From contig NC_073387.1 in the NCBI RefSeq assembly GCF_028641065.1, positions 21,638,001 through 21,702,000 on the forward strand: a stretch of 64,000 nucleotides of DNA, given 5' to 3'. A program made the translations under genes and the position numbers. Position 1 is the first letter of the stretch. Every line of letters begins with the position of its first letter. The stretch comes from Leucoraja erinacea. Its lineage: Eukaryota. Shown in pieces: positions 29,269 to 53,928 of this stretch. The notes below the pieces were generated by a model. The model had not been told where the DNA came from. It did no database searches and worked only from the letters and a program-made list of their open reading frames with translations.

Positions 29269-29284
29269 CTTAATTAATATTTAA

Positions 29285-29530
29285 CATAGAAACATAGAAC
29301 ATAGAAACATAGAAATTAGGTGCAGGAGTAGGCCATTCGGCCCTTCGAGCCTGCACCGCCATTCAATATGATCATGGCTGATCATCCAACTCAGTATCCC
29401 GTACCTGCCTTCTCTCCATACCCCCTGATCCCCTTAGCCACAAGGGCCACATCTAACTCCCTCTTAAATATAGCCAATGAACTGGCCTCGTCTACCCTCT
29501 GTGGCAGAGAGTTCCAGAGATTCACCACTC
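29285..29530 (-). mobile_element. Young CR1-type LINE 3' insertion private to copy A, with TSD
   Basis: (ACATAGAA)n tail, RVVNLWNSLPQR ORF end; flanked by 7-bp direct repeat TATTTAA (29278-29284, 29531-29537); empty site in copies B and C. Confidence 0.9.
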
Positions 29531-30834
29531 TATTTAATATTGATGATGTTGAAGATCTTTCATCAGAATAGTGCAGGTTTGATAAGATTGTCAGTGAATG
29601 GTTACATACACTTGTGTAACTCACTGTTCAATCTTGCGAATCATAAAATGCCTAGTGAAAAGATGATAAAGTATTCTTCAAATTACTTTAGATTTTCTTT
29701 TCCAGGGTGTAAGGGACCAACGAAAGAGTGGTCAGAATGTGGCTGATATTAAAATTAAAGTGGCAAGCAAATGGCAGCATAGCAGAATAATCTACAATAT
29801 CTACAAAGCCGATTCTGAATTTAATGTGTTTCTCCATTGTGGAATGGATCCTATTGCGCACGCAGCATGAAGATTGCTATATTGGAAGGAGTGAGTGTAA
29901 GTTGCCCTATTAGCTGAAATGACCATTTGTACCTGTTGATATTGGCATGTGTAGAATGCATGCGGTCATAGGTGATAGGAGCATAATTAGGCCATTCGGT
30001 CCATCAATTATACTCCGCCATTCAATCATGGCTGATCTATCTCTCCTCCTTAACCCCATTCTCTTGCCTTCTCCCCATAACCCCATGACACCCGTACTAA
30101 TAAAGAGTTAGACTGGAAGACGTTACATCTCCAACGATCGCAAATGAATGTGCCATTCAAAGAGTGATGCGTGCTAAGGGAGATGTATTGTGACGTAAGC
30201 AATTACCGACTGAGTAATTTCTTGGTGAGCCTGTGTAGACGTGTCTGGTTGTAACGTCATGCGCAATGAGACAGAGGTAATGGAGAATAATCCATTGACT
30301 GTAGAGGATGTTGCGACAAACAGGAGACAATGGCAAAATTATTATCAGAGCAGATAAGATGGAGTAAGAGATACTTGGAACACGGAATGGTGTTCTTGTC
30401 GGAAGAAATATGGGAGGAGATGTGGACAAGATCGTGTGAGCATGCATAGGACAGCAACGGACATTATGGTTGTCCACTGGAATCATTGCTGAGACCATCA
30501 GCCGGAATCAAGGTAGATTGTGTCAGAACATGGTAGTCAGCTCAACGCCCCATTTGCTATTCATGTCAATTCTCGCGGGAACAGCTGAAGAGATGCAAGT
30601 ACGTTTTGGGTAATTATGGTGATAAGGACAAATCAACGTCGATGGTGAATAACGCTTCTGGTTTATAGTCCTTCGAATCAATCATGCCAGATCAACAATG
30701 GAATAACTCCACATGTGTGTGTTAATGCAATCCCACCATTATTTCAAAAGCATGATAATATGAAGGAAACCGAATTTAATTAACATCTAACATATTAACT
30801 TAAATTACCACTTTCTTAACCAAGAAGAAATGTG

Positions 30835-31217
30835 CAGAGAATTGTGTTGTGTTCCATGTTGGGAACATAGGCAGGACCTACACGGTGAATGGTAGGACTC
30901 TGGGTAGTGTTGCAGAGCAGAGGGATCTAGGAATGCAGATGCATGATTCCTTGAAGGTGAAGTCGCAAGTAGATCGCGTCGTCAAAACGGGTTTTCGCAG
31001 ATCGGCCTTCATCAGCCAGAGTATTGAGTATAGAAGTTGGGAGGTAATTTTGCAATTGTATACGACGTTGGCGAGGCCGCATTCAGAGTATTATCGTCAG
31101 TTCTGGACACCGTGTTATGAGAAAGATGTTGTCAAGCTGGAAAGGGTGCAGAAAAGATTTACGAGGATGTTCCCATGAATAGAGGGTCTGAGCTATAGGC
31201 AGAGGTTGAGTAGGCTG
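30835..31217 (+). mobile_element. CR1-type LINE fragment truncated at the A/B junction
   Basis: EQRDLGMQMHDSLKV...KLERVQKRFTRM; ends abruptly at GTAGGCTG. Confidence 0.85.
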
Positions 31218-32628
31218 ATTTTCTGTCATAACATTTGCCTTAAATATGTTTAAAAATGAATGGTACAAGTTTCAAGAAGTGTAATGTTCCATAATACTTC
31301 AAACACAATTATTGATTGTGCACAGTACTAGTCAACCCGCATAATCCAAAATCACAATAAGAATATACTGAAAAGTCTATCAAGATCCCTTATGATGTTT
31401 GAATAAAAATCAACATTTCCCCTTATCTCCACTCCATTTCCCAATAACCGCTTTAGATCTCTGTCCCGCTGTTTGGTCCGTCTGATGGAGTATATGGACT
31501 TTTTTTCATATCACTACGACCCTCATAATATTCGTCACTCAATTCATCTTCGCTTCCGTTACAATGTAATCGTTTCCAGTTTCTCCAAATGTTCCAGTCC
31601 TAGAAAAGACATATGTTCTCTGCAATCTGTTAACCAAAGCTATACGCTATGCACGAACTCTGGCTTATCGGGTACTTGGCAAACTTTCATGTTGCTCAGT
31701 TGCAATTACATCCAAGCTCTACCAGCTCGATTACAACACTGACAATTACACGACATATCATAAAACGGGCATACTGAGATAGTTTTCCAAAATTATCGTG
31801 AACATGCTGTGAAGATAAGATGAAATTACGCTTTCTGTCCAAACCCTATAAGGGATCTGAAAATCTGCGTCGAAAAGAATGGACAAGAAGGAAACTCTCA
31901 TCACCTTTAAAACCTAGTGGGATATGTACTTGAGGCGCCACTGCTCGCAAGGCTGCGGACCTCGTGCTGGAAGGAAGAATAGGCTTGGGTGTCATATTTT
32001 GTGAACACTGCCTCCTTCAGGCAAATAGCTTCCATCGGTATCCTACATGTACTACCTTTCTCTGTTTGCTGGACCACGCGAAAGGCAACGCCTAAAGTCA
32101 CTTTAATTGCTTCAACCATAAAGGGTTCATTTTCCTTGGCGCAATACAATACAATACAAGAAATAAGACAACCATTGCGCAAATACATTGTGCTATGGTT
32201 TAAAAATGTATAGGCAATTGGTGGACACATTACATGTTTCCCCGTTATTTCTGATATGACAAAATGCAAATTTTGGGGCTTTCCTCAGTCCCATGATTCT
32301 CATCAATTATTGTATTATGCACCAGCTACCGCTCCAGCATCAATTTTGCAAATATCGGCTTCTAACAAATGCATAAACAAGATGGAAATAAAAATCCAGT
32401 GGCATCATCTCCCAACGATTCATCCTCATTCTGCTCATGAATGTCATGAAACTTTAACATAAATTGTGGAGTAATTTTAATCAAAAAATCCGATTAAAAT
32501 GGCAAATTATTAACACACGAAACAAATACACGGGGAATTGGACCTGCATGAATTAAAGTTGGTACATCCAATTTCATTGAGCTTTTTATTATACCAGTGA
32601 CCAGTTATACGTGCTCTACAACACTCAC

Positions 32629-35082
32629 CACGTTCGACGAACTGCTCCTTGTCTTTGTACTGTCCGTTGGCGCATATTTAGCGTACTTTTCAATGGTCCC
32701 GTGAATCTGTGGACTGAATGGGGTGAAATATATATCCCGTGGTTCGGGCGCCGATCGAATTTTATAACGGTATGTTTCTGAAAGGGATCCATTTCCATGA
32801 ACCTCAAGTAGACTGGGAAGGAAGTGAGAATCCGGCACGATTTGCAAGTTCACATTCGAATGGCTATATTCCAACTCTCTTCTGCAGCAGCTATCTGCTA
32901 AAGTGCAGGCATTCCCAGATGCAGAATGGCTGCCCATTGGGCAAATGACTACAACAAGTACAATTATAACCACCAAAAGAACAAACGAGGTTGCTCCTAG
33001 TGTAATTATTATATATAATGATAGGTTCTGCGTGTCTTCTAGGTCGTTACGCGCTTCATTGAAGTCCAGCAAACCCTCCGTGTGTTCCTCAACTATTGTC
33101 AAAGTAAAGGTGGTGGTAGCGGAGAGAGCGGGATAACCGTTATCTTTCACCTGGATAATCAGCCTTTGTGTGGTGGCGTCGCTATCTTTAATGCGCCGAG
33201 CAGTTCTTACCTCTCCTGAGTTATATGAAACTATAAAGAGACCCGGGTCACTGGATTGCATGAGTTGATAAGACAGTTGTGCATTCTTACCGGAATCTGC
33301 GTCGGAAGCAAGGACCTTTGTTACCATATATCCCGGGTCTGCAGAACGAGGCACAGGCAGACTGCTGTTGCTTTTTATTGCATTTGCTGTTATCATGGGT
33401 GGATTATCGTTCTGATCCAAGACAATCACTTTCACAACAACGTCACTGGAAAGTGATGTTAATCCGGCATCTTGAGCCCGAACGTGAAACTGAAAACCTT
33501 TAAGTCGTTCATAATCGAAAGGAGTTTTCGAGTAGATGCTGCCATTATTTGAGTTGATAAAGAGGTAGAAAGACACAGGCACTGACTGTATCTGGTTCTC
33601 CAAAATAGAGTAAGAAAGCTGTGAATTTCGGTCGCTATCAAGATCCAAAGCTGTTACTGATCCAATGTAGCTGCCGGGTTCATTATTTTCCGCCACATAG
33701 GCCGTGTAGGAAGGCTGCGTAAAGCGCGGCGCGTTATCATTAATATCTGAGATATTTAACACAATCGTCCGGCTGGTAGATAAAAGTGGGATACCACGGT
33801 CTTTGCAAGTTACTGTAATCTTATGATGAGGGGCGCTTTCTCGATCGAGTGCTGCATTTGTAACTAGTCTGTAGGAATTTGTGAAGGAAGATTTAAGATT
33901 AAAGAGTAGATTGGGTGAGATAGAACAGTCGATGAGTCCATTTTGATTGGAATCCCTGTCTGTCACACTGATCAATGCGATCAACGTTCCACTTGGATCA
34001 TTTTCACTGACTGTACCGGAAACAGAATTCAAAGTTATATCAGGAGCGTTGTCATTCACATCTGTGATATCCACCCGCACATTGCAGAGTGTGGATAACG
34101 ATTGCACACTTTTGTCCTTAGCTTGTACATAAATCTGATAAATATTGGTTTCTTCAAAATCCATAATTCCTTTGGTACGTATCTCCCCGGATTTGTGGTT
34201 AATCGTAAACATTTCAGTTATCCTTTGTTCATTGTAACTGCTGAAAGAATAAACGATTTCGCCATTTGTGCCCTCGTCCAGGTCAGTCGCGTTAAGTTTA
34301 ATCACCAAGGAATTTCGTGATACGTTCTCCTTCAGGCTAACAGTATACGCCGATTGCTCGAAAACCGGTGTATTATCATTAATGTCCAAAACAACAATAG
34401 TTACATGAGCCGTACCTGACCTCCCTGGAGTACCGCCATCAAGAGCGGTCAGTAATAAACTGTACACTGGTTGTTTTTCTCGGTCGAGAATATTCTGCAG
34501 CACCAGTTCTGGTAACTTCAATTTCCCAAAATTCTGCACATCCAACGTAAAATGATCATTAGCAGCGATCTGGTAGTTACGAACAGAATTATTTCTCCCG
34601 TCCATATCGTACGCGCCCTCTAGCAGAAAACGCGATCCTGGCATCCTGCTTTCTGAAATTTCCAAACGAATTTCGCTTTTCGGAAAAATTGGAGAATTGT
34701 CGTTTATATCCAATATCTCAACTTCCACACGGTACTGCTCCACAGGGTTTTCAACCACCGCTTCCACGAGCAATACACAGTTATCACTCTGACCACACAG
34801 CTGTTCCCTGTCGATTCTTGCATTTACAAATAAAATTCCATTCATATTATTTACATCAAGGTATTGTTTTGATGCGGCAGACTTAATTCTGAATTTACGG
34901 TTTGATAGCTCCTCTATGCTCAAACCCAAATCTTTTCCGACTGCTCCGACGAAGGCACCTTGTTCCAGTTCTTCTGGAATGGAGTAGCGAATCTGCCCGG
35001 AAACCAGATTCCACACACAAAGCAGAAAGATGGATGATATCACCGACTTTCCATGCACGCGGAAAATGCTCCTTTGTGCCAT
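32629..35082 (-). CDS. Pcdh: Clustered protocadherin variable exon 4 (triplication copy B)
   Basis: ORF 32605..35280; likely start ATG 35082 (MAQRSIF...). Donor GTG|GTGAGT at 32629/32628; 818 codons; near-identical to exon 3. Confidence 0.93.
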
Positions 35083-35302
35083 TATTTCTGTGGGGTAGAT
35101 CACAAATACCTTAGCAATGTTTCTTCTTGAAAGCATCCCGGACCACATCCGAACCAATTCCTTCAATGTGTTGAATAAATTGAAGTGTGATCGGTTGAAT
35201 AGATGGTCCGCTGCGCTCGTACACACGCCGCCATTATTCAGCTTCCTTTCTCGTATATTGGGGGATGGGCGGTGGATCACTAGGTGGTTTTCACCTCCTT
35301 AT

Positions 35303-35342
35303 TGGTAGACAGCGACACAAAGAGTCTCAGCCTATAATTGCA
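35303..35342 (-). promoter_or_regulatory. CSE of exon 4 promoter
   Basis: Identical motif to the exon 3 CSE, 221 bp upstream of ATG 35082. Confidence 0.9.
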
Positions 35343-36517
35343 CTGAGAATGTGGATAAGCTAAATTCCAGTTAACATATTAAAACACAACGTTTGTTTTT
35401 TTGCGAGATCGGCCAAATAGTTTGAAAGGCAATTAACCGAAATTATTGAAACACTAAGGAAGAATCTTAAGTTTAATAAAACAACGAATTCTGCCGTATA
35501 GATATGTGTGGGCGAGTGAATACAGTTATTTGTCCATTGGAATGTGGAAGTTAAATCCTCTAGGCGATTTTTACAAGAAACAAGTTGAAAATGTCGTGAG
35601 ATTTCCAAAGAAACCAAGAAAATATTTCCATATAATTACTGGGAAATATATAGCATTTTTTAAACAATTATCACAATCGCCCATATTCATATCAACGTAA
35701 TTCTTCCCAATTGATGAGGTTGAACTTATATTTTCTTTATCTTTGAGACCCATTCAATTTTACTGAAATTTTCGACGCTTTGTTTCTTATTGGGTTTGTC
35801 GAAACATGTTCATGCAGCTGGCAGTCAATGTGTAAACAAACTTTTTTTGAGATATGCAACGCTTAAGATAAATAAAGGGTTATGGGTAGGTTCGCATTTA
35901 TGAAAATGCTCTCCATTCTGAAAGAGATCATTTTTGTAAAGTTGTTATCTAATGTTTTATTTGTTGCCATTGGTAATGCAGAAGGAATTCGATAATCCAG
36001 AATCTCGCTCATTTCTAGATTTTTCAACATGCCATATTATTTGGTATTTAACTGAATATAGTAAAACTTAAACTATAGTAAAACTAAAAGCTCTAATTAG
36101 ACATGGATGGGGTACTTCGCAATTATTCAGACAGCTAAGTAGAAAATGGCAGCAAATCAACAAATTGATTAAATGCACAAGCAGTAAGATGATGGCGAGG
36201 GTAGTGTCGGGTTTAAGTGAAGGGTACATGCAAGCAAGCACACTTGAATGGGTATATCAGAACCACGACCAAGAGCCATTGGCAGAAATTAATGGCATAA
36301 GACGCTGGTGATAAAGCAAATCTGTAATCAATATCAAAAGAATGGAAATCATTGTAAAAATCACCAGGTCATTCATTCTTTTTGAGCATTAAAACTCTCA
36401 TATTTCGAGAACGATAATTTTTACAGCGCTGAGATATCGCATCGTTTTTTTATGTGAAGTTGCTCAGCTCTGCATTAAAATTGGCAGCAAAGATTTGAAT
36501 CCGGAAACAGTGAATCA

Positions 36518-36612
36518 ATCTGAAGAAGGGTCTCGACCCGAAACGTCACCCATTTCTTCTCTCCAGAGATACTGCCTGTCCCGCTTAATTACTCCAGCGC
36601 TCTGTGTCTATC
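36518..36612 (+). mobile_element. Penelope-derived short repeat (copy B) with intact hammerhead-like core
   Basis: CTGAAGAAGGGTCTCGACCCGAAACGTC at 36520-36547. Confidence 0.65.
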
Positions 36613-39489
36613 TGTAGCTAAAACAATAGTGCACGAATTACGGTTATGAACATGGGCCTTTCAATTATGGGAGAGATCAACATTCGTGTCGAAGCACAGA
36701 CTAATGCTTTTGTCGCCAATCAGTCTACTTGATTGTTTCATCACGTGGATATCCATCATGACTGAAAGCATCCTCGTGATAGCAATAATTTGTTGAATGG
36801 GTTGAAAAGAAGAAACTTTGTTGCCTCCTAGATATTCCAATTACAACGCTGAATGTCTGTGCTTTTGAACAATACACATCTCCAGTCAAACATTTATTGC
36901 TTCACACTCGAACCAGCAGTATAATATTCGACGAGCACCTCCAACTTTCGAGGGAATTTTACCTTTTATTTTCTGTCTTAAGTTAAATTTACATTCCTTG
37001 ATATCAACGTGCCATTGTAGCCAAATGATGGAGAAAACAATTATTGACAGACAATTTTCTGAGTACAGGGCTGAAGGATAGTGTTGCATAATTAAATCTA
37101 TTGAATCTAGTCGAACATGACCATAACATCCTATTAATTGAGAACTGAAATATTGTCGAGGTGCGTTGTATTTTAAACAATGACGTGCTGCAATATTTTG
37201 CTCAATGCCACTCAAGCGAAACTTCACCCATTCCTTCTGTCCAGAGATGCCGCTTGGCCCGCTGAGTTACTCCAGCATTTTGCGTCTATCTTCAGTTTAA
37301 GCCAATATCAACAGCTCCTTCATCCACAATGCCATATGTAGTTAAGTTTAACTCTCTCCCCGTTACGCTTTCCATCAGATTTGACGCTATTGGCTTACAC
37401 CTGCGCACTACAGGACCCCATTCACTGCACAATATAACATCTAATTTGATTAAGACTGGTCACACTCAGCGGCAATAGACTTTTTTTTACACAATCAAGT
37501 AACAGTGGCGCAGCTAATAAATATTTCAGACGGCAGACGTCTAATCACCGGCCACTGACCACCTATTTAGTATTATTGGCATGGTGGTTGGCTATTCTCA
37601 ATTAGAATACTGATGCACCTGCCACATACATAGTCGACCACATTGTTGACCCAACCTACAATATATAAATTCTAATCCTTCAGCACGATAGTCGCTACTG
37701 CCACCACTGACGACTTTTTCAATGAATAAAAATTAAAGACTATTACAAATATGGTACGATTTTTACTTACCTAAACTAACAGAAAAATAGTAATTAGTGA
37801 AAAACACACAATTAATCATAAAGGACATAAACTGCCCTCGCATCACAGGTCAGCAACAACATCCAACAACATTCAAATAGACAATGCAAAACAGAGGAGT
37901 TGAATGTAAAGTTCATTTGCGCACCAGAGTTCAAAGATTGGGCTTGCTCGGANNNNNNNNNNNNNNNNNNNNNNNNNNNNNNNNNNNNNNNNNNNNNNNN
38001 NNNNNNNNNNNNNNNNNNNNNNNNNNNNNNNNNNNNNNNNNNNNNNNNNNNNNNNNNNNNNNNNNNNNNNNNNNNNNNNNNNNNNNNNNNNNNNNNNNNN
38101 NNNNNNNNNNNNNNNNNNNNNNNNNNNTTAATTAATATTTAATATCGATGCTGATGGTGATCTTTCATCAGAATAGTGCAGGTTTGATAGGACCGTCAGT
38201 GAATGGTTATATATACTTGTGTAACCCACTGTTCAATCTTGCGAATCATAAAATGCCTAATCAAAAGATGATAAAATATTCTTCAAGTTACTTTAGATTT
38301 TCTTTTCCAGGGTGAAAGGGACCAACTAGAGAGTGGTCAGAGAATGGCTGACATTAAAATTACAGAGGCAAGCAAATGGCAGCATAGCAGAATAATCTAC
38401 CATATCTACAAAGTCGATTCTCAATTTAACGTTTTTCTCCATTGTGGAATGGATCCTATTGCGCACGGAGCATGAAGATTGCTATATTGGAAGGAGTGAG
38501 TGTAAGTTGCCCTATTAGCTGAAATGACCATTTGTACATGTTGATATTGGCATGTGTAGAATTCATACGGTCAAAGGTGATAGGAACATAATTAGGCCAT
38601 TCGGTCCATCAATTCTACTCCGCCATTCAATCATGGCTGATCTATCTCTCCTCCCTAACCCCATTCTCTTGCCTTCTCCCTATAAACACTGACACCCGTA
38701 CTAATAAAGAGTTAGACTGGAAGACGTTACATCTCCAACGATCGCAAATGAATGTGCCATTCAAAGAGGGATGCGTGCTAAGGGAGATGTATTGTGACGT
38801 AAGCAATTACCGACTGAGTAATTTCTTTGTGAGCCTGTGTAGACGTGTCTGGTTGTAACGTCATGCGCAATGAGACAGAGGTAATGGAGAATAATCCATT
38901 GACTGTAGAGGATGTTGTGACAAAGAGGAGACAATTGCAAAATTATTATCAGAACAGATAAGATGGAGTAAGAGATACTTGGAACACGGAATGGTGTTCT
39001 TGTCGGAAGAAATATGGGAGGAGATGTGGATAAGATTGTGTGAGCATGCATAGGACTGCAACGGACATTATGGTTCTCCACTGGAATCATTGATGAGACC
39101 ATCAGCCGGAATCAAGGTAGATTGTGTCAGAACATGGTAGCCAGCTCGTCGCCCCATTTGCTATTCAAAGCGTTGATATATATGCCTGATGCGTACGGGG
39201 AGGTTGATGTCAATTCTCACGGGAGCTGCTGAAGAGATGCAAGTACGTTTTGGGTTATTATGGTGATAAGGACAAATCAGCGTCGATGGTGAATGACGCT
39301 TCTGATGTATAGTCCTTCGAAGCATCTTAAATCAATCATGCCAGATCAACAATGGAATAACTCCACGGGTGTGTGTGAATGTAATCCCACCATTATTCCA
39401 AATCATGATAATATTAAGGAAACCAAATTTAATGAACATCTAAAATATCAACTTAAATTACCCCTTTCTTTACGAAGAAGAAATGTGCA

Positions 39490-39814
39490 GAGAAATGTGA
39501 GGTGTTCCATGTTGGGAACATTGGGATTGGTAGGGTTCTGGGTAGTGTTGCAGAGCAGAGGGATCCTAGATCGCGTCGTCAAATAGGGTTTTCGCAGATC
39601 GGCCTTCATCAGCCAGAGTAATGAGTATAGAAGTTGGGAGGTAATTTTGCAATTGTATACGACGTTGGCGAGGCCGCATTTACAGCATTGTTGTCAGTTC
39701 TGGGCACCGTGTTATGGAAAAGATGTTGTCAAGCTGGAAAGGGTCCAGGAAAGATTTACGAGGATGTTGCCAGGAATAGAGGGTCTGAGCTATTGGCAGA
39801 GGTTGAGTAGGCTG
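39490..39814 (+). mobile_element. CR1-type LINE fragment truncated at the B/C junction
   Basis: Paralogue of 30835-31217; ends at the same GTAGGCTG. Confidence 0.85.
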
Positions 39815-41029
39815 ATTTTTTGTCATAACATTTGCCTTAAATATGTTGAAAAGTTAATGGTACAAGTTTCAAGAAGTGTAATGTTCCATATTACTTAAAA
39901 CACCTTTTTTGATTGTGCACAGTACTAGTCAATCCTCTATAATCCAAAATCACAATAAGAATAAACTGAAAAGTCTATCAAGATCCCTTATAATGCTTGA
40001 ATAAAAATCGACATTTCTCCTTATCTCCATTTCCCAATAACCGCTTTTGATCTCGTCCCGCTTTGGTCCGTCTGATGGAGGATATATACTTTTTTTCATA
40101 TCCCTACGACCCTCATAATATTCTTCACTCAATTCATCTTCGCTTCCGTTACAATGTAATCGTTTCCAATTTCTCCAAATGTTCCAGTCCTAGAAAGTAA
40201 TTTGTTCTCTGCAATCTGCTAACCAAAGCTATAGGCTATGCACGGACTCTGGCTTATCGGGTATTTGGCAAACTTTGATGTTGCTCAGTTGCAATTCTAC
40301 CAGCTCGTTAACAACACTGACATTTACGCGACATTTCATAAAACGAGCATACTGAGATAGTTTTCCAAAATATCGTGAAAATGCAGTGAAGATAAGGAGA
40401 AATTACGATTTCCGTCCAAACACTATAAGGGATCTGAAAATATGCGTCTAAAAGAATGGACCAGAAGGAAACTTTCATCATCTTTAAAACCTAGTTGGAT
40501 GTGTACTTGAAGCCCCGCTGCTCGCAAGGCTGCGGACCTCGTGCTGGAAGGAATAATAGGCTGGGGTGTAATATTTTGTAAACACTGCCTCCTTCAGGCA
40601 AATAGCTTCCATCGGTATCCTAAATGTACTATCTTTCTCTGTTTGCTGGACCACGCGAAAGGCAACGCCTAAAGTCACTTTCAATGCTTCAACCATACAA
40701 GGGTTCATTTTCCTTGGCGCAGTACAATATTACAAATTTTAATTTTAAAAATATCGGCTTCTAACATAGATAGATGTTATAGCATAAACAAGATGGAAAT
40801 AAAAATTCGGTGGGATCCATCCCAACGATTCATCTCATTCTGCTCATGAATGTCACGAATCTTTAACTTAAATTGTGGAGTCATTTTAATCCAAAAATCC
40901 GATTAAATGGCAAACACACGAAACAAATACACGAGGAATTGGACTTGCATCAAGATAGGTTGGTACATCCAATTTCATGGAGCTTTTTATTATAGCAGTG
41001 ACCAGTTATATGTGCTCTACAACACTCAC

Positions 41030-43483
41030 CACGTTCGCCGAACTGCTCCTTGTCTTTGTACTGTCGGTTGGCGCATATTTAGCGTACTTTTCAATGGTCC
41101 CGTGCATCTGTGGACTGAATGGAGTGAAATATATATCTCGTGGTTCGGGCGCCGATCGAATTTTATAACGGTATGTTTCTGAAAGGGATCCATTTCCATG
41201 AACCTCAAGTAGACTGGGAAGGAAGTGAGAATCCGGCACGATTTGCAAGTTCACATTCGAATGCCTATATTCCAACTCTCTTCTGCAGCAACTGTCTGCT
41301 AAAGTGCAGGCATGCCCAGATGCAGAATGACTGCCCATTGGGCAAATGACTACAACAAGTACAATTATAACCACCAAAAGAACAAACGAGGTTGCTCCTA
41401 GTGTAATTATTATATATAATGATAAGTTCTGCGTGTCTTCTAAGTCGTCCCGCGCTTCATTGAAGTCCAGCAAACCCTCCGTGTGTTCCTCAACTATTGT
41501 CAAAGTAAAGGTGGTGGTAGCAGAGAGAGCGGGATAGCCGTTATCTTTCACCTGGATAATCAGCCTTTGTGTGGTGGCGTCGCTATCTTTAATGCGCCGA
41601 GCAGTTCTTACCTCTCCTGAGTTATATGAAACTATAAAGAGACCCGGGTCACTGGATTGCATCAGTTGATAAGACAGTTGTGCATTCTTACCGGAATCTG
41701 CGTCGGAGGCAAGGACCTTTGTTACCATATATCCCGGGTCTGCAGAACGAGGCACAGGCAGACTGCTGTTGCTTTTTATTGCATTTGCTGTTATCATGGG
41801 TGGATTGTCGTTCTGATCCAAGACAATCACTTTCACAGCAACGTCACTGGAAAGTGATGTTAATCCGGCATCTTGAGCCCGAACGTGAAACTGAAAACCT
41901 TTAAGTCGTTCATAATCGAAAGGAGTTTTCGAGTAGATGCTGCCATTATTTGAGTTGATAAAGAGGTAGAAAGACACAGGCACTGACTGTATCTGGTTCT
42001 CCAAAATAGAGTAAGAAAGCTGTGAATTTCGGTCGATATCACGATCCAAAGCTGTTACTGATCCAATGTAGCTGCCTGGCTCATTATTTTCTGCCACATA
42101 GGTCGTGTACGAAGGCTGCGTAAAGCGCGGCGCGTTATCATTTATATCTGAGATATTTACCACAATTGTCCGGGTGGTAGATAACGGGGGGATACCACGG
42201 TCTTTGCAAGTTACTGTAATCTTATGTTGAGGGGTGCTTTCTCGGTCGAGTGCCGCATTTGTAACTAGTCTGTATGAATTACTGAAGGAAGATTTAAGGT
42301 CAAATGGTAGGTTGTGTGAAATGGAACAGTCGATGTGTCCATTTTCATTGGAATCCCGGTCTGTCACGCCGATGAAGGCTATTAAAGTTCCCGTCGGAAC
42401 ATTCTCACTGATTGTACCGGAAACAGAATTTAGAGTTAAATCAGGAGCGTTGTCATTCACATCTCTGATCCCCACTCGCACGCTGCAGTGTGTGGATAGC
42501 GACTGCACACTTTTGTCCTTAGCTTCCACATGAATCTGATAAACACTGGTTTCTTCAAAATCCATTATTCCTTTTGTACGGATCTCTCCTGATGTTGGTA
42601 TAATCGTAAATATTTCAGTTATTCTTGGTTCGTTGTAACTGCTGAAAGAATAAATGATCTCGCCATTTCTACCTTCGTCTAAATCAGTCGCGTTCAGGTT
42701 AATCACTAAGGAATTCAATGGCATGTTCTCGCTTAGACTAACACTATACACTGATTTCCCGAAAATCGGTGTATTATCATTCACATCCAGGATAACAATG
42801 TTTACGTGAGCTGTACCTGACCTTTCAGGAATACCGCCGTCAAGAGCGGTCAGTAATAAATTGTACACTGGTTGTTTTTCTCGGTCGAGAATATTCTGCA
42901 ACACCACTTCGGGTAACTTCCACTTGCCAACATTCTGAACTTCTAACGTAAAATGATAATTTGCAGCGAGCTGGTAAATACGAACAGAATTATTTCTCCC
43001 GTCCATATCGTGGGCGCCTTCTAACAGAAAACGTGCTCCTGGCATCGCGGTTTCTGAAATTTCCAAACGAATTTCACTTTTCGGAAAATTCGGAGAATTA
43101 TCGTTTATATCCAATATATCAACTTGCACAAGGTACTGCTCCACAGGATTTTCAACCACCGCTTCCACGAGCAATACACAGTTATCACTCTGACCACACA
43201 GCTGTTCCCTGTCGATTCTTGCACTTACAAATAAAATTCCATTCTTATTATTTACATCCAAATATTGTTTTGATGCAGCTGATATCATTCTGAATTTACG
43301 ACTTGATAGGTCCTCTATGCTCAAACCCAAATCTTTGCCGACTGCTCCGACGAAGGCACCTTGTTCCAGTTCTTCTGGTATGGAGTAGCGAATCTGCCCG
43401 GAAACCAGATTCCACACACAAAGCAGAAAGATGGATGATATCACCGACTTTCCATGCACGCGGAAAATGCTCCTTTGTGCCAT
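41030..43483 (-). CDS. Pcdh: Clustered protocadherin variable exon 5 (triplication copy C)
   Basis: ORF 41006..43681; likely start ATG 43483. Donor GTG|GTGAGT at 41030/41029; 818 codons. Confidence 0.93.
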
Positions 43484-43703
43484 TACTTCTGTGGGGTAGA
43501 TCACAAATACCTTAACAATGTTTTTTCTTGAAAGCATCCCGGCCCACATCCGAACCAATTCCTTCAATGTGTTGAATAAGTTGAAGTGTGATCGATTGAA
43601 GAGATTGTCCGCTGCGTTCGTACACACGCCGCCATTATTCAGCTTCCTTTCTCGTAAATTGGGGGATGGGCGGTGGATCACTAGGTGGTTTTCATCTCCT
43701 TAT

Positions 43704-43743
43704 TGGTAGACAGCGACACAAAGAGTCTCAGCCTATAATTGCA
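43704..43743 (-). promoter_or_regulatory. CSE of exon 5 promoter
   Basis: Identical motif to the exon 3 CSE, 221 bp upstream of ATG 43483. Confidence 0.9.
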
Positions 43744-45221
43744 CTGAGAATGTGGATAAGCTAAATTCCAGTTAAAATGTTAAAATAACAACATTTTTTT
43801 GCGAGATCGGCCACATTGTTTGAAAGGCAATTAACCGGAAGAATTGAAATACTGGTATTCGAATGACACCAGCATTTATCTAAGGAAGAATCTTAAGTAA
43901 AACAAAAACGAATTCTGCCGTATAGATATGTGTGGGCATATGATTAAAGTTAATTGTCCATTGGAACGTAGAAGTTAAATCCTCTATGCGATTTTTACAA
44001 GAAACATGTTGAAAATGTCGTGAAATATTCAAATAAACCAAGAAAAATTTTACGTATAATTATTGGGAAATATATAGAATTTATTAAACAATGATCACAA
44101 TCGACCATATTCATATCAACGTTGTTCTTCACATTTGATGAGGCTGAACTTATATTTTCTTTATTTTGGAGACCCATTCAATTTTACTGAATTTTTCGAC
44201 GCTTTGTTTCTTATTGGGTTTGTCGAAACATTTTCATGCAGCCGGCAGTCAACGTGTAAGCAAACATTTTTGAGGTGTGGAACGCATAGGGTAAATAAAA
44301 GGTCATGGGTAGGTTCGTATTTATGAATATGCTCTCCATTCTGAAAGAGATTATTTTTGTAAAGTTGTTATCTATTCTTTAATCTGTTGCCATTGGTAAT
44401 GCAGGAGGAATTACCATAACCCAGAATCTCGCTCACTTCTAGATTTTTCAACATGCCATATAATTGGGTATTTAACTGAATATAGTAAAACTAAAAGTTT
44501 AACTAAAATACGAGCAAATTGTACAACTTTGAAGTAGGTTGCATTATTGTACATGCTGCAACTGTCCTTCAAGTAAATGTTTAATGTAATCCCACATTTT
44601 GAGTCGAAAACCAGGACGAATCAAACAGTTGTGTATTGTAATTTAACGAATTGAGAATAGTAATAGAATACATTAGATTGGACAGAAATCACCAAGGCAC
44701 AGTTGTGATTTCTGGAAATCTCAAATAACACGTGAAAGTATTTGACGTTTTATTTTCCGAGAAAGAGATATGACATTTCAATACAACTTGAGCTCTAATT
44801 AGACATGGATGGGGTACTTCGCAATTATTCAGACAGCTAAGTAGAAAATGGCAGCAATCAACAAATTGATTATATGCACAAGTAGTAGGATGATGGCGAG
44901 GGTAGTGTTGGGTTTAAGTGAAGGATGCAGGCAAGCACGGACACTTGAATGGGTATAGCAGAACCACGACCAAGAGCCATCGCAGAAAATAATGGCATGA
45001 GACGAAGTGCTGGTGATAAAGCAAATCTGAAATCAATATGAAAAGAATGGAAATCATTGTAAAAATCATCAGGTCATTCATTCTTTTTGAGCATTAAAAA
45101 TCTCATATTTCCAGATCGATTATTTTTTCAGCGCTGAGATTTTACATCGATTTTTATGTGAAGTTGCTCAGCTCTGAATTAACAATGGCAGTAAAAATTT
45201 GAATCCGGAAACAGTGAATCA

Positions 45222-45320
45222 GTCTGAAGAAGGGTCTCGACCCGAAACGTCATCCATTCCTTCTCTCCAGAGATACTACCTGTCCCGCTGAATTACTCCA
45301 GCACTCTGTGTCTATCTGTA
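45222..45320 (+). mobile_element. Penelope-derived short repeat (copy C) with intact hammerhead-like core
   Basis: CTGAAGAAGGGTCTCGACCCGAAACGTC at 45224-45251. Confidence 0.65.
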
Positions 45321-46258
45321 GCTGAAACAATAGTGCACGAATGCTGGTTATGGTCATCGGCCTTTCAATAATGGGAGAGATCAACATTCGTGTCGAAGCA
45401 CAGACTAATGCTTTTGCCGCCCATTCAGTCTACTTGATTGTTTCATCACGTGGATATCCACGTAGATGACTGAAAGCATCCTCCGTTGTCGCAATAATTT
45501 GTTGAATGGATTGAAAGGAAGAAACATTGCTGCCTCCAAAATATTCTAGGTATAACGCTGAATGTCTGTGCTTTTGAACAAGTCACACCTCCAGTGTAAC
45601 AATTATTGCTTCACACTCGAGAAAGCAGTATAATATTCGACGAGCATCTCCAACCTTCGAGGGCATTTTACCCTTTTCATTTCTATCAAAGTGAAATTTA
45701 CACTCTCTGATACCAACGTATGCAATTGTATGCAATTGACGAAGACATAATATTGACATAACATTTTCTGAGTACAGGGCTGAAGGATTGTGTTGCAGAA
45801 CTAAATCTAATCGAACATAACCACAAAATCGTATTCATTGAGAACTGAAATATTGTCGAGGTGCGTTGTATTTTAAACAATGACGTGCTGCAATATTTTG
45901 CTCAATGCCACTCCAGCGGTTAGTGTTCACTCATGGTTAACTGCTTAATTCAGCACTAACTTCATAATAACTTTCAGGCCGATGCCTACTTTGCATTGCG
46001 CTAAAGTCACTCACGTTTAGGCTGAGTTACTACAATGGCCCAAACGTTGATGCGAGGTTTCTAGTTTCAAAACTGCCATTGACCGTGATTGAATTTGATC
46101 AAGAATGATTGAAATACATATCAGCAAAATGCATGGTCGAATAGAACCTGAGCGAAGTTTTCCATTAACATTAAGTATGGAATGTTGGACCTGTTCGACC
46201 ACATTCGCCCTATTCCAGGTATTTGTTGCTCGACATTCCCAGTTAATGCCCCATGTAG

Positions 46259-46462
46259 TTAGACATAAATATGCTGGAGTAACTCTGCGGGACAGGCAGC
46301 ATTTCTGAACAGAAGCAATGGGTGACGTTTCGGGTCGAGACGCTTCTTCAGACTTCAGTCCAGCCAAACATCAGTCTCGACCAGAAAAGTCACCCATTCC
46401 TTCTCTCCAGAAATGCTGCTTGGCCCGCTGAGTTACTCCAGCATTTTGCGTCTATCTTCAGT
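46259..46462. mobile_element. Inverted (hairpin) pair of Penelope-derived repeats, copy C
   Basis: Paralogue of 28236-28440; minus-strand core GACGTTTCGGGTCGAGACGCTTCTTCAG at 46324-46351. Confidence 0.65.
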
Positions 46463-48584
46463 TTAAGCAAGTATCTGCAGCTCGTTCCTCCACAATGCCA
46501 TATGCTGTTAAGTTTAACCCTCTCCCCGTTACGCTTTCCTTCAGATTGGCTTACACTTGCGCACTGCAGGACCCTTCCTGTTCACTACACAATAGAATAT
46601 CTAATTTGATTAAGACTGGTCACACTCAGCGGCAATATACTTTTTTGTTTTACACAATCAAGTAACAGTGGCGCTGCCTAATAGGAAACTAATAAATATT
46701 TCAGACTGCAGACGTCTAATCACCGGCCACTGTCCACCTATTTAATATTATTGGCATGGTGGTTGACTATTCTCAATTAGAATACTGATGCACCTGCCAC
46801 ATACATTGTCGACCACATTGTTGACCCAACCTACAATATATACATTCTAATCCTTCAGCACGATAGTCGCTACTGCCATCAATGACGACGTTTTCAATTT
46901 ATACAATTTAAAGATTATTAAAAAATTATGATACGATTTCTACTTACCTAAACTAACAGAAACAAAGTAATTCGTGAAAAAGACATATAATTAATCATAA
47001 AGAACATAAACTGCCCTGGCATCACAGGTCAGCAACAACGTCCAACAGCATTCAAATAGACAATGCAAAACAGAGTAGTTGAATGTAAAGTTCATTTGCG
47101 CACCAGAGTTCAAAGATTGTGCTTGCACAGTGAGCTTGANNNNNNNNNNNNNNNNNNNNNNNNNNNNNNNNNNNNNNNNNNNNNNNNNNNNNNNNNNNNN
47201 NNNNNNNNNNNNNNNNNNNNNNNNNNNNNNNNNNNNNNNNNNNNNNNNNNNNNNNNNNNNNNNNNNNNNNNNNNNNNNNNNNNNNNNNNNNNNNNNNNNN
47301 NNNNNNNNNNNNNNAATTAATATTTAATATTGATGATGTTGAAGATCTTTCATCAGAATAGTGCAGGTTTGATAAGACAGTGAATGGTTACAGACAGACT
47401 CACTGTTCAATCTTGCGAACAGCCTACAGACAGACAGAAAGACTTCAAATTACAGACAGACCAACGATAGATAGGTCAGATGTGGCTGATAGATAGATAG
47501 GAAATAGCATATAGCAGAATAATCTATATCTACAAAGCCGATCTGATTTAGTTTCTCCATAGATCCTATTGCGCACGCAGATGAAGATAGATAGATAGAT
47601 AGATAGATAGATTAGTTGAAATGACAATTTGTGCCTGTTGATATTGGCATGTGTAGAATGCATGCGGTCATAGATGATAGGAGCATAATTAGGCCATTCG
47701 GTCCATCAATTCTACTACGCCATTCAATCATGGCTGATATATCTCTCCTCCTTAACCCATTCTCTTTCCTTCTCCCCATAACCCCTGACACCCGTACTAA
47801 TAAAGAGTTAGGGTGGAAGACGTTACATCTCCAACGCTCGCAAAAGAATGTGCCATTCAAAGAGTGATGCCTGCTAAGGGAGATGTATAGTGACGTAGGC
47901 AATTACCGACTGAGCAATTTCTTGGTGAGCCTGTGTAGACGTGGCTGGTTGTAACGTCATGCGCAATGAGACAGAGGTAATGGAGAATAATCCATTGATT
48001 GTAGAGGATGTTGCGACAAACAGGAGACAATTGCAAAATTATTATCAGAACAGATAAGATGGAGTAAGAGATACTTGGAACACGGAATGGTTTTCTTGTC
48101 GGAAGAAATATGGGAGGAGATGTGGACAAGATTGTGTGAGCATAGGACAGCAACTGACATGATGGTTCTCCACTGGAATCATTGCTGAGACCATCAGCCG
48201 GAATCAAGGTAGTATGTGTCAGTACATGGTAGCCAACTCGACGCCCCATTTGCTATTCAAAGCGTTGATATATATGGCTGCAGCGTACGGGGAGGTTGAT
48301 GTCAATTCTCGCGGGAACTGCTGAAGAGATGCAAGTACGTTTTGGGTAATTGTGGTGATAAGGACAAATCAGCGTCGATGGTGAATGACGCTTCTGATTT
48401 ATTTTCCTTCGAAGCATCTTAAATCAATCAAGCCAGATCAACAATGGAATAACTCCACTGGTGTGTGTTAATGCAATCCCACCATTATTCCAAAAGCATG
48501 ATAATATTAAGGAAAACAAATTTAATTAACATCTAACATATCGCCTTAAATTACCCATTTATTAACGAAGAAGAAATGTGCAAA

Positions 48585-49580
48585 GAAATGTGAGGTGTTC
48601 CATGATGGGAATATAGGCAGGTGAATGGTAGGGCTCTGGGTAGTGTTGCAGAGCAGAGGGATCAAGGAATGCAGGTACAATTTATATAATACAATACAAT
48701 ACAATACTATACCGTTTATTTGTCATTTGAACCTCACATGAAGTTCAAACGAAATTTGGTTTCTACAGTCATACAACAGGAAAAGAACCAAGACACACAC
48801 CAACACAATTCACACAAACATCCATCACAGTGGATCTCCTCCTCACTGTGATGGAAGGCCAAATTTTGTCTCTCCCCTGCTCTCAATTCTTCTCCCGAAG
48901 TCAAAGTCATGATTCCTTGAAGGTGGAGTAGCAAGTAGATCGCGTCGTCAAAAAGGGTTTTCGCAGATCGGCCTACGTCAGCCAGAGTATTGAGTATAGA
49001 AGTTGGGAGGTAATGTTGCAGTTGTATACGTCGTTGGCGAGGCCGCATTTAGAGTATTGCTGTCAGTTCTGGGCACCGTATTATGGGAAAGATGTTGTAA
49101 AGCTGGAAAGGGTGCAGAATAGATTTACGAGGGTGTTGCCAGGAATAGAGGGTCTGAGCTATAGGCAGAGTAGGCTGGGACGCTATTCCTTGGAGCCTAG
49201 GAGGATGAGGGGTGATCTTATAGAGGTATATAAGATCATGAGAGGAATAGATCCGCTAGATGTACAGAATAACTTGTCCAGAGTAGGGGAATCGAGGACC
49301 AGCGGACATAGGTTTAAGGTGAAGGGGAAAAGATTTAATTGGAATGTGAGGGGTAACCTTTTCACATAGAGGTGGTTGCATGGAACAAGCTGTCATAGGA
49401 GGTAGTCGAGGCAAGGACTATCCTAACGTTCCAGGAACAGTTAAACAGGTACATGGATACGACAGGTTTAGAGGGATATGGACAAAATGCGGGCAGGTGG
49501 GACCAGTGCAGCTGGGATATGTTGGCCGGTGCAGGCAAGTTGGGCCGATGGGCACTGTATCACTCTATGACTCTATGACT
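48585..49580 (+). mobile_element. CR1-type LINE fragment, uninterrupted to its 3' end, with nested insertion at about 48678-48907
   Basis: ORF 49013..49369 (RPHLEYCCQFWAP...RMRGDLIEVYKIMRG) and tail CTCTATGACTCTATGACT. Confidence 0.88.
48678..48907 (-). mobile_element. Short retroposon 3' fragment private to copy C
   Basis: (ATACA)n tail followed by TTTATTTGTCA; interrupts GGAATGCAG.T.|CATGATTCC, which is contiguous in copy A. Confidence 0.65.
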
Positions 49581-51477: not shown

Positions 51478-53928
51478 CTCATTTGACCAGGTCTTCTGCG
51501 GCTTTGCATACTGCAACGTATATCGGCCGTCCATTCCGGTAATTCCTGATATGTGCGGACTGAATGGTGTGAAAAACATTTCCTCTGGCTCCGGTGCTGA
51601 CCGAATTTTGTAACGGTAGGATTCTGAAAGAGACCCATTGCCGCGCACCTCAAGTATACCGGGAAGGAGGTGGGAATCCCTAGTAAGTTGAAGGTTGACA
51701 TTTGCATTCTGATATTCCAATTTTCTGGTGCAGCAACAGTTATCGAAGAGGCAAACGCTGCAGGAAGCGGCACTGTGGCCTCGTGGGCAAGTTACGACTA
51801 CAAGTGCAATGATAACCACCAGCAGAATTAAAGACGTCGCTCCCAAAGTTATTATTATGTAAAGACTTAACTGTTGCGTGCCTTTGAAATCCGGACGCGA
51901 TTCAATAAATTCCGGCTGATAGGTTATAGGTCCCTCAATTACCGTCAGGCTTAAAGTGGTCGTAGCTGAAAGAGCCGGGTAACCGTTGTCTTTCACTTGG
52001 ATAATTAGTTTTTGTGTGGTGACGTCGCTATCTTTGAGCTGCCGAACACTCCTTACTTCTCCGGAACTATGTAAAACCGTGAAAAGACCCGGGACACTGG
52101 CCTGTTTCAGATGATAGGACAGCTGGGCATTTTTACCCGAATCTGCGTCGGAAGCAATAATTTGTGTCACCAAATATCCTGGATCTGCAGAGCGGCTCAC
52201 ATGAAAATTGGTATTGCGTTTTGTTCCAGGTGTTAGTATGATAGGTGGATTGTCGTTTTGATCCAGAACAACCACCTGCACAGCCACCTCGCTGAAAAGT
52301 GATGGTAATCCGGCATCCTCAGCTCGAACCTGAAACTGAAACGTCTTAAATTGCTCGTAATCAAATGATCTTTTAGAGTAAATGCTGCCATTATTGGGGT
52401 TGATATAGACATAGGATGACACTGGCACTGACTGAACCTGGTAGTCCAAAATAGTGTAAGACAGCCGTGAATTTCGGTCAGTATCAGGATCTAAAGCAGT
52501 CACTGATCTGATGTAACTCTCCGGTGCATTGTTTTCGGTCACGTACACCGTGTAGGAACGTTGCGTAAATTGCGGCGCATTGTCATTCACGTCGGAAACG
52601 TCGACAATAATCGTGGTATTGGTAAATAGTGGAGGGGACCCACGGTCTTTACACGTCACAGTAATTATATATTGAAAAGCGCTTTCTCGGTCCAGTAATG
52701 CACTTGTGACAAGTCTGTAAGAATTGACAAAGGAAGATTTCAGATCAAACGGGAGGTTTGGAGAAACACGGCAATCAATGTTTCCATTTTGATTGGAATC
52801 CCGATCTGTTACACTGACAAACGCAATCAAAGTTCCAGTCGGAGCATCTTCTCTGATGCTATCGGAAATGGAATTTAGTGTCATCTCTGGAGCATTGTCA
52901 TTGACATCTGTAATCTCCACCCGTACATTACAGTGCTCCGAAAGCGGTTGTGTGCCTCTGTCGTTAGCCTCCACGTGAATGAGAAAAACATTCGATTTTT
53001 CAAAATCCAAAATTCCTTTTGTATGAATTTCCCCTGAGAACGGATTAATGGTAAATACTTCAGTTATTTTGGGCTCATTGTTGCTGCTAAATGAATAAAC
53101 GATCTCACCATTGGTACCCTGGTCTAAATCAGTCGCGTTAAGCCTGATCACTAAAGAATTAGGAGGCACATTCTCCCTCAGACTAACACTATAAAACGAT
53201 TTCTGGAAAACAGGAGGATTATCATTTACATCTAGGATATTGATAGTTATGTGAGCGGTACCTGACCTTTCTGGAGTGCCGCCGTCAATAGCCGTCAGTA
53301 ATAAAGTATACACTGATTGTTTTTCTCGGTCGAGAATGTTCTCCAGTACTAACGCAGGCAATTTCCACTTTCCTGTGTTCTGTACATCTAACGTAAAATA
53401 TTTGTTCGCATTGAGCTGATATGTGCGAACCGAATTATTTTTCCCGTCCAGATCATGTGCGCGCTCTAATGGAAAGCGGGTCCCGGGCATTACTGACTCT
53501 GGAATCTTCAAATCAATTGCCCTGTTCGGAAAAGTCGGAGAGTTATCATTTAAATCCAGAACCTTAACTTCCACACGGTACTGCTCCACTGGATTTTCCA
53601 CCACCGCTTCCATGAGTAGTACGCAGTTATCACTCTGACCACATAGTTGTTCCCTGTCAATTCTTGCATTCACAAATAACATTCCATTCACGCGGTTCAC
53701 ATCCAAATATTGTATTGACGCGACAGATATTATTCTGAATTTACGACTTGATAGCTCTTCCGTGCTCAAACCCAAATCCTTTCCGATATTCCCGACGAAT
53801 GCTCCGTGTTCCAGTTCTTCGGGAATGGAGTAACGAATCTGCCCGGAAATTAGATTCCACAGACAAAGCAGAAAGATGGATGATATCCCCGACTTTATAC
53901 GCACACGCAGAACGCCCATTTGTGTCAT
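51478..53928 (-). CDS. Pcdh: Clustered protocadherin variable exon 6
   Basis: ORF 51454..53964 (track start is TTG); first ATG 53928 (MTQMGVLR...ISG|QIRYS). LEVRGNGSLSESYRYKIR motif; donor GAG|GTGAGT at 51478/51477. Confidence 0.94.

What the first reader, a model, noticed from the sequence alone, without database searches (positions are those of the whole stretch)
42150..42990. Inverted divergence: an old EC2-EC4 'specificity cassette' inside a young duplicate (exon 5)
Seen: over a 150-nt EC2/EC3 stretch I count 33 differences between copy A (24631-24780) and copy C (42666-42815), many synonymous, but only 4 between A and B (34265-34414). A non-coding 120-nt stretch (26461-26580 vs from 44500) is identical between A and C, and EC5-EC6/TM/cytoplasmic regions are nearly identical in all three. 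In this block exon 5 shares residues with exon 6 (GKWKLP, PERSGT, IHVEA, PTGTLIAF, NLPFDLKSSF) yet still differs from it at about 35/150 nt. Established: EC1-EC4, especially EC2-EC3, form the antiparallel trans-homophilic recognition interface of clustered Pcdhs; gene conversion sparing EC2-3 is known in mammals and teleosts, while elephant shark was reported to show very little conversion. Inference: either the recognition block was swapped in from another paralogue, or conversion homogenised a whole 9-kb unit including intergenic DNA while sparing the specificity domains. Both would create new self-recognition codes by cassette exchange in a chondrichthyan.
Basis: partly seen in the sequence, partly recalled or inferred. 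Interest (0 to 1): 0.75.

Follow-up and report, generated by a model that had tools for sequence, protein, structure and literature searches.

The report
Old recognition block in young protocadherin
In a skate's array of neuronal self-recognition (protocadherin) genes, one of three tandem 9-kb copies that differ by about 7% carries a 0.8-kb recognition-domain block about four times more diverged at silent sites, likely moved by gene conversion and predicted to give a distinct recognition code, a variant of a process already known in fish and mammals.

Summary
Real, not an assembly artefact, but less extreme than first read. Three Pcdh-mu variable exons (A, B, C; minus strand) sit in tandem 8.6-9.6 kb units. 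In C, 42167-42978 (EC2 residue ~140 to the end of EC4) differs from A/B at 24-25% of fourfold sites (p 1e-9, 2e-6), under purifying selection. A and B differ there at only 1.7%, less than their units do, so the same block was also copied between A and B later. Exon D is not the donor; both block types descend from one batoid gene and split early in the skate line. Both types occur in runs of three labelled organisms, about 1:2. Best reading: block transplant by conversion from a since-lost sister gene (0.5); rival: long-term conversion sparing a selected block (0.3). A changed specificity is inferred, not tested. A new variant of known regional conversion in Pcdh clusters.

The parts
42167..42978 (-). 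Divergent block of exon C, mature codons ~140-410 (3' two thirds of EC2, EC3, most of EC4)
   Evidence: Two-breakpoint likelihood fit: 117 C-specific sites in 812 nt inside, 26 in 1576 outside; 5' edge codons 133-145, 3' edge codons 375-441 within 3 lnL
41030..43483 (-).
   Evidence: Open frame; this ATG gives the protein held in the collection as P0121; Pfam Cadherin_2, Cadherin, Cadherin_C_2; donor at 41029
24132..24943 (-). Same block in exon A (AB type)
   Evidence: 11 differences to B in 812 nt; fourfold 2/118, lower than non-coding, p 0.011
33766..34577 (-). Same block in exon B (AB type)
   Evidence: As for A
22995..25448 (-). Variable exon A; closer to C in promoter-EC2a, closer to B in the block
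   Evidence: Odd-one-out counts A/B/C: proximal upstream 41/106/47, SP-EC2a 11/21/10, block 3/6/117; donor 22994
32629..35082 (-). Variable exon B
   Evidence: Open frame; donor 32628
21606..31215 (.). Tandem unit A (exon, about 5.5 kb upstream, 1.4 kb downstream); holds an N gap at 29112-29268
   Evidence: Self-BLAST; N runs
31216..39812 (.). Tandem unit B; N gap at 37953-38127
39813..49180 (.). Tandem unit C; N gap at 47140-47314; its outer end runs on into the uncut repeat fragment
31170..31270 (.). Duplication junction A/B (repeat fragment joined to unique DNA, 2-base microhomology); the same junction stands at 39812/39813
   Evidence: Junction view; unit edges 7-9.5% diverged, like the interior
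43702..43719 (-). Conserved promoter element with a CGCT core upstream of C; copies at 25667, 35301, 54148, 15510 and 6406
   Evidence: Motif scan; the name CSE is recalled and appears in PMC4978886 passages
51478..53928 (-).
   Evidence: dS to A, B, C 0.6-1.5; groups with Mobula P0049 and Narcine P0065

Best explanation
Exon C is an intact skate protocadherin-mu variable exon in a tandem unit about 7% diverged from its two neighbours, and its EC2(3' part)-EC4 block, about four times more diverged at silent sites, was likely exchanged by gene conversion with an older sister gene that has since been lost, which would give C a different homophilic binding code from A and B. Steps: (1) shown by trees: the C-type and AB-type blocks descend from one batoid gene and split early on the skate line; (2) shown by sequence: a 9.6-kb single-gene unit was tandemly duplicated through one non-homologous junction and reached three copies, now 6-8% diverged right up to their edges; (3) inferred: at about that time one unit took the other block type from the old sister gene, which became redundant and was deleted; which unit was the recipient is not determined; (4) shown as a younger tract, direction unknown: the AB-type block was later copied between A and B, with the same 5' edge, while EC1-EC2a of A and B stayed 6.5% apart; (5) inferred from mouse work: the block pairs an old EC3/EC4 with a different EC1 and EC2 N-part in the antiparallel EC1:EC4, EC2:EC3 dimer, so C (84-85% identical to A/B over EC1-4) is predicted not to bind A or B, and selection for a distinct code keeps the block from being overwritten.
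For: Block fourfold divergence 0.25/0.23 (JC 0.31/0.28) against 0.062-0.077 non-coding and 0.05-0.07 in coding flanks, which do not differ from non-coding (p 0.19-1). No 200-column non-coding window exceeds 10% (A-C) or 14.5% (B-C) among 23 windows per pair, so no old relic outside the block. Unit edges are 7-9.5% diverged and the junction is crisp and shared. dN/dS 0.16-0.24 in EC2-EC4, and D sides with C at 49 and with A/B at 39 of the C-specific sites, so both lineages changed. Tree depth: in the block the A,B,C stem is 0.035 with about 0.10-0.11 to the tips, in the flanks 0.089 with about 0.02; A-C distance is 0.73-0.89 of the C-to-ray-orthologue distance in the block and 0.14-0.15 in the flanks (p about 1e-8, 3 of 3 orthologues). 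C-type contigs (4/695, 2/265, 10/449, 8/343, 11/435 other letters) in runs X1, X6, X12 at about the depth of long single-paralogue contigs, AB-type contigs at 1.4-1.8 times that, so both types predate those splits and C-type is single. Conversion is active in this array: A-B block younger than the unit (p 0.011), odd-one-out pattern heterogeneous within contigs (p 0.001 by region; 109 of 5000 permutations by kb). [quoted passage not shown]
Against: No donor was found: no relic in the window, none among 24 listed contig pieces of 190, and no whole genome was available. A lost donor is an extra, unobserved event. Human opsins show that conversion can hold flanking introns alike while a selected exon diverges (PMC3924837, passages), which needs no donor. 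The 3' edge of the block is diffuse (codons 375-441), as a divergence peak would be. No listed contig bridges the 5' edge; one C-type contig (X12 record 9) bridges the fitted 3' edge. No GC3 difference between block and flanks (0.41 vs 0.41-0.43). In the one RNA run laid (X24, about 5% read) all 8-15 reads at each listed block site carried the A/B letter, so expression of C was not seen. No binding test exists.
Confidence: 0.5

Rival explanations
1. Old tandem duplicate under long-term concerted evolution: C-type and AB-type genes have sat side by side since the early skate line, conversion kept the whole unit alike until about the 7% stage, and selection on binding specificity spared EC2-EC4 (divergence-peak model, as in opsins and RHD/RHCE; the usual Pcdh pattern).
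For: Needs no lost donor (none found). Conversion tracts are evident in coding and non-coding parts. A weaker echo of the pattern between D and A/B/C: fourfold 38-42/106 in EC1+EC5-6 against 44-52/88-92 in the block, p 0.02-0.06. Precedent in Pcdh clusters (PMC4978886, PMC1852091, passages) and opsins (PMC3924837).
Against: Divergence is flat at 6-8% over about 4.8 kb of aligned non-coding DNA, in the coding flanks and at the outermost 235-300 bases, with no old patch; escape from conversion would be expected to be patchy and edges older (inference). Silent sites of EC5-tail are no more alike than intergenic DNA, unlike the >99% tracts in fugu.
Confidence: 0.3
2. Allele capture: the two block types were long-lived alleles of one gene, kept by balancing selection while recombination mixed their flanks; a tandem duplication followed by allelic recombination fixed both on one chromosome.
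For: Explains a young unit, an old block, no donor and descent of both types from one batoid gene. In EC2b-EC3 Narcine matches A/B at 18 and C at 10 of 35 diagnostic residues while Hypanus and Mobula match C at 15 and A/B at 9-10; an A,B+Narcine clade is not rejected (p-AU 0.25).
Against: Needs a polymorphism held to dS 0.3-0.5 over 0.8 kb; the best tree keeps A, B, C together (82/90 and 91/90, unstarred); all three other organisms laid carry both types at fixed-looking ratios; no such Pcdh alleles appeared in my searches.
Confidence: 0.07
3. Local acceleration: positive selection or a mutation hotspot drove the block apart after a young triplication.
For: 51-55 amino-acid changes in 279 codons; EC2-EC3 are reported targets of diversifying selection (PMC1852091 passage).
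Against: Silent sites carry the signal (dN/dS about 0.2); changes fall on both lineages; C-type orthologues in other organisms differ by only 0.6-2.5% in the block, so it is not fast-evolving.
Confidence: 0.03
4. Assembly artefact: an old paralogue's block was joined to or polished with A/B-like flanks.
For: N gaps at the same position in each unit put A, B and C on different contigs; no listed contig bridges the 5' edge.
Against: C's flanks differ from both A and B by 6-8% over kilobases; exon C lies inside one gap-free stretch, 38128-47139; in X12 a C-type contig runs from the block to 42119, into sequence shared with A/B; in X1 the C-type and AB-type contigs have the same ends, both in shared 31-mer islands.
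Confidence: 0.03

Closest known systems
Regional gene conversion in clustered protocadherins of zebrafish, fugu and mammals (Noonan 2004, seen second-hand; Yu 2007, PMC1852091, passages)
   Same: Domain-wise contrast in dS with EC2-EC3 most diverged and a fairly sharp boundary inside the variable exon; high/low dS ratio across ectodomains 6-10 here.
   Different: Here the low-divergence part includes 5-7 kb of non-coding DNA per unit and is no younger in coding than in non-coding DNA; the diverged block is internal (both flanks young); and between A and B the pattern is reversed, EC2b-EC4 homogenised while EC1-EC2a stay apart. No GC3 rise.
Elephant shark Pcdh cluster, mu subcluster (Yu 2008; not held, seen only through PMC2764143 and PMC4978886 passages)
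   Same: Same subcluster by constant region; same exon and promoter anatomy.
   Different: Elephant shark ratios of 1.8-2.3 were read as little conversion (PMC2764143); this skate trio gives 6-10, by a different, pairwise calculation.
Divergence peak under conversion: human red/green opsins, RHD/RHCE (PMC3924837, passages)
   Same: A functionally important block stays diverged between tandem copies whose flanking non-coding DNA is alike.
   Different: There conversion is ongoing; here the flanks are uniformly about 7% diverged with large indels, and a 0.8-kb block rather than a few sites is affected.

Membership tests
Clustered protocadherin variable exon | One large exon with signal peptide, six cadherin repeats, TM and variable tail | tested here: met
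   Open frame, five DxNDNxP linkers, Pfam hits; best solved relatives are Pcdh10 and clustered Pcdhs
Clustered protocadherin variable exon | Tandem array, each exon with its own conserved promoter element and a splice donor | tested here: met
   CGCT-core element before 6 of 6 exons and GTGAGT donor at the end of 6 of 6
Clustered protocadherin variable exon | Spliced to shared constant exons and expressed | tested here: inconclusive
   Constant exons lie outside the window; C letters not seen among 8-15 reads per listed block site in run X24
Clustered protocadherin variable exon | Strict homophilic trans binding through EC1-4 | not testable with these tools
   Inferred from mouse data (PMC8901172, PMC5106212, passages)
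Chondrichthyan Pcdh-mu subcluster | mu-type constant region downstream | tested here: met
   The record P0126 that holds A, B, E2 and E1 ends in a constant region matching Callorhinchus Pcdh mu5 (P0105); it is a predicted fused model, not a cDNA
Classical Pcdh regional conversion (3' homogenisation sparing EC2-3) | dS far lower in EC1/EC5-EC6 than in EC2-EC3 | tested here: met
   C vs A/B: 0.05-0.16 against 0.36-0.51
Classical Pcdh regional conversion (3' homogenisation sparing EC2-3) | Homogenised coding tract younger than the surrounding DNA | tested here: not met
   Flank fourfold sites equal non-coding divergence for A-C and B-C (p 0.67, 1)
Classical Pcdh regional conversion (3' homogenisation sparing EC2-3) | Raised GC3 in converted tracts | tested here: not met
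   0.41 in the block, 0.41-0.43 in all flanks, 0.44-0.45 in EC5-6
Classical Pcdh regional conversion (3' homogenisation sparing EC2-3) | Paralogues closer than orthologues in converted tracts across species | tested here: inconclusive
   No skate orthologue sequences of A, B or C were retrieved; one search gives only summaries from contigs that merge similar copies
Segment transplant from a paralogue | An identifiable donor closer to the block than the sister copies are | tested here: not met
   D rejected; no relic in the window; none among listed contigs; rest of the genome not searchable

The most novel reading that the evidence does not exclude
The two EC2-EC4 block types are ancient balanced alleles of one neuronal self-recognition gene, in the manner of MHC or self-incompatibility alleles, captured side by side by a tandem duplication and since shuffled between copies as a cassette.
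Probability: 0.07. Interest if true: 0.85.

Novelty: new variant of a known kind. Interest (0 to 1): 0.45.

Why it matters
Known Pcdh conversion homogenises the non-specific domains and spares EC2-EC3. Here the recognition block itself appears to move between copies, at least once demonstrably (A/B), in a lineage thought from the elephant shark to have little conversion. That offers a route by which a fresh duplicate gets a new code at once instead of by slow substitution, and a natural set of chimeras (A, B, C) to test how EC1/EC2a and EC2b-EC4 combine to set specificity. It also warns that EC2-EC3 trees, the standard for Pcdh orthology, would misdate these units. It remains one gene trio in one fish group with no functional data.

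Tried and rejected
Whole-genome search for a donor: no genome is held. Three protein searches and two cluster look-ups found ray and shark orthologues but no skate orthologue of A, B or C; the first was crowded by long multi-repeat proteins. D as donor: rejected. Donor relic in the window: none by tblastn or blastn. GC-biased conversion signal: none. My first non-coding counts (and the Fisher tests built on them) wrongly counted about 150 N-against-N columns; one search repeats them without, and also drops columns within 5 of a gap and 95 poorly aligned columns. The apparent switch to 'C odd' beyond 47.1 kb was set aside because it lies across N gaps. A history with C as the middle product of an unequal crossover (order D-B-C-A) fits the 5' side but not the downstream DNA (odd counts 37/37/31). 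Contig depth hints that A and B are about 1% apart in the block in X12 while orthologues differ by 2.4%, suggesting repeated A-B conversion; too rough to count. Site 41907 (all window copies C, listed X12 contigs T) is a CpG and was not counted. No complex prediction was run: clustered Pcdh dimers resemble solved structures and a score would not tell specificity. Earlier findings of the scan: none. Yu 2008 could not be read.

Full report
Setting. The window holds six protocadherin variable exons on the minus strand, in transcription order D, C, B, A, E2, E1. Each has a conserved promoter element with a CGCT core and ends at a GTGAGT donor (6 of 6). A database record named Leucoraja erinacea (P0126) contains exons A and B letter for letter, so the window is most likely from the little skate; that record ends in a constant region matching Callorhinchus Pcdh mu5. 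A, B and C lie in tandem units 21606-31215, 31216-39812 and 39813-about 49180. The two internal joints are the same junction, a cut repeat fragment joined to unique DNA with two bases of microhomology, so one non-homologous duplication was followed by a further copy (the order of events is inferred). Each unit has an N gap at the same place, so A, B and C are on three contigs and the order of B and C is not proven.

Observation. But over 4759 aligned non-coding columns the units differ by 6.2% (A-C), 7.5% (A-B) and 7.7% (B-C), and fourfold sites in the coding flanks by 15/220, 11/221 and 16/220, not different from non-coding. An identical run of 120 arose in 590 of 5000 simulations at this rate. 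The duplicate is young but not fresh. The block stands out all the same: a two-breakpoint fit places it at 42167-42978, with the 5' edge at codons 133-145 and a looser 3' edge at codons 375-441. Fourfold divergence there is 26/102 (A-C) and 23/98 (B-C), p 1e-9 and 1.7e-6 against non-coding; NG86 dS is 0.36-0.51 with dN/dS 0.16-0.24.

Not an artefact. C's flanks are 6-8% from both neighbours, which cross-polishing would not give. Laying contigs of runs X1, X6 and X12 (three different organism labels, three studies) at 80% likeness showed C-type pieces with 4/695, 2/265, 10/449, 8/343 and 11/435 other letters, and AB-type pieces with 96/695 and 40/349 where the window's A gives 104 and 41. C-type depth matched long single-paralogue contigs (11.3 vs 11.4; 43-46 vs 42.5; 54-62 vs 47-49) and AB-type depth was 1.4-1.8 times higher, a rough 1:2. 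Limits: only 24 of 190 pieces, 40 of 553 variant rows and 24 of 90 loose ends were shown; the tool warns that depth is no copy number; one C-type piece bridges the 3' edge, none listed bridges the 5' edge; I do not know which label is the window's species.

Origin of the block. D is not the donor: C differs from D at 204 of 812 block bases, A at 215, B at 217, and a C+D clade is rejected (p-AU 0.003). Several of the residues C shares with D are also in ray orthologues, so they are retained ancestral states. Protein trees (LG+G4; 23 of 40 aligned units picked by hand, 17; three proteins not parsed by my pattern were left out) put A, B and C with one gene each from Narcine, Hypanus and Mobula; in the last two the predicted models place it directly before the E2 orthologue. 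In the block the A/B-C split is deep (stem 0.035, tips about 0.10-0.11; support 91/90, unstarred); in the flanks it is shallow (stem 0.089, tips about 0.02). The A-C distance is 0.73-0.89 of the C-to-orthologue distance in the block and 0.14-0.15 in the flanks. Differences fall on both lineages. No relic of a donor is in the window.

A second, younger move. A and B differ at only 11 of 812 block bases and 2 of 118 fourfold sites, below their non-coding divergence (p 0.011), while A is closer to C in the proximal upstream DNA (odd-one-out A/B/C 41/106/47) and in SP-EC2a (11/21/10). The A-B tract starts at about codon 130-150, the same edge as C's block. So the block was also copied between A and B, and the usual Pcdh pattern is reversed for this pair: EC2b-EC4 alike, EC1-EC2a 6.5% apart. 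This makes it uncertain that C was the recipient of the first move.

Mechanism. Flat 6-8% divergence across non-coding DNA, coding flanks and the outermost 235-300 bases, with no old patch in 23 windows per pair, fits a discrete unit duplication better than conversion that kept 9 kb alike to the breakpoints and then stopped everywhere. I therefore favour a transplant of the block from an old sister gene, later lost (0.5). Long-term conversion sparing a selected block needs no donor and has precedent in opsins (PMC3924837, passages), so it stays strong (0.3). Allele capture (0.07), local acceleration (0.03) and artefact (0.03) follow; the rest is for mixed histories. All three leading readings use recombination between copies and selection on specificity.

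Function, inferred. In mouse, EC1 binds EC4 and EC2 binds EC3 in an antiparallel dimer (10.1101/493106, PMC5106212, passages), and beta6/beta8 at 92% identity do not cross-bind (PMC8901172, passages). C is 85% and 84% identical to A and B over EC1-4, A and B 95%. The block is not a matched interface: EC1 and EC2 residues 101-139 lie outside it, including residue 116, which by the numbering corresponds roughly to the interface residues gamma-A8 I116 and beta6 S117; A, B and C read TTV, SRM and TAM at 116-118. A transplant would thus make a new combination rather than restore the donor's code. Against a current role for C: in RNA run X24 (about 5% read) every one of 8-15 reads at the listed block sites carried the A/B letter; one tissue, low depth.

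Literature. Conversion sparing EC2-EC3 is well described (PMC4978886, PMC1852091, PMC2764143; passages only). The elephant-shark ratio of highest to lowest ectodomain dS, 1.8-2.3, comes second-hand from PMC2764143; the skate pairs give about 6, 10 and 10, by a different calculation. Six searches listed no paper on skate or ray Pcdh clusters or on transfer of an EC2-EC4 block; the library lacks most subscription papers, Yu 2008 and Noonan 2004 were not read, and no supplements were opened, so genome-paper supplements could hold a description.

Verdict. A real mosaic gene trio; a new variant of known Pcdh conversion, interest 0.45.

Noticed in passing
29112-29268, 37953-38127, 47140-47314: N gaps at the same position in all three units; swapping the B and C contigs would make A and C the closest pair over most upstream DNA, so the assembled order may be wrong or further copies may be hidden.
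   Followed up: partly
43118-43131 (exon C, EC1 residues 89-93): Three C-specific amino-acid changes within 14 bases (R89L, E91Q, E93D); contigs of X6 and X12 show the A/B letter at 43118 and 43126, so they look recent: micro-conversion, compensation for the foreign EC4, or decay.
   Followed up: no
A 25000-25060 and homologues in B and C (EC2 residues 103-129): A and B differ at 7 of 39 residues in the N-terminal part of EC2, around positions that set specificity in mouse, while their EC3 differs at 1 of 108.
   Followed up: partly
P0052 (Pristis pectinata): EC2b-EC3 group with Mobula P0001, but EC4-EC5 are closer to skate C (16/105, 17/110) than to Mobula P0001_0 (19, 27): a possible older domain exchange in another batoid; the EC4 and EC5 trees were unresolved.
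   Followed up: partly
51478-53928 (D) against A, B, C: Silent sites in EC1 and EC5-6 are somewhat more alike than in the block (p 0.02-0.06), perhaps an older round of the same process.
   Followed up: partly
43625-43751 and 54071-54197: 127 bases around the promoter element are 88% identical between C and D although the rest of their upstream DNA does not align.
   Followed up: no
59156-59959 and 60244-60956: Repeat fragment with a 268-codon open frame that looks like the C-terminal part of a CR1-type LINE (name recalled; no Pfam hit); a related fragment is cut by the unit breakpoint.
   Followed up: partly
P0126: The public gene model fuses five variable exons into one 4394-residue protein, which hides A and B from ordinary protein searches.
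   Followed up: yes
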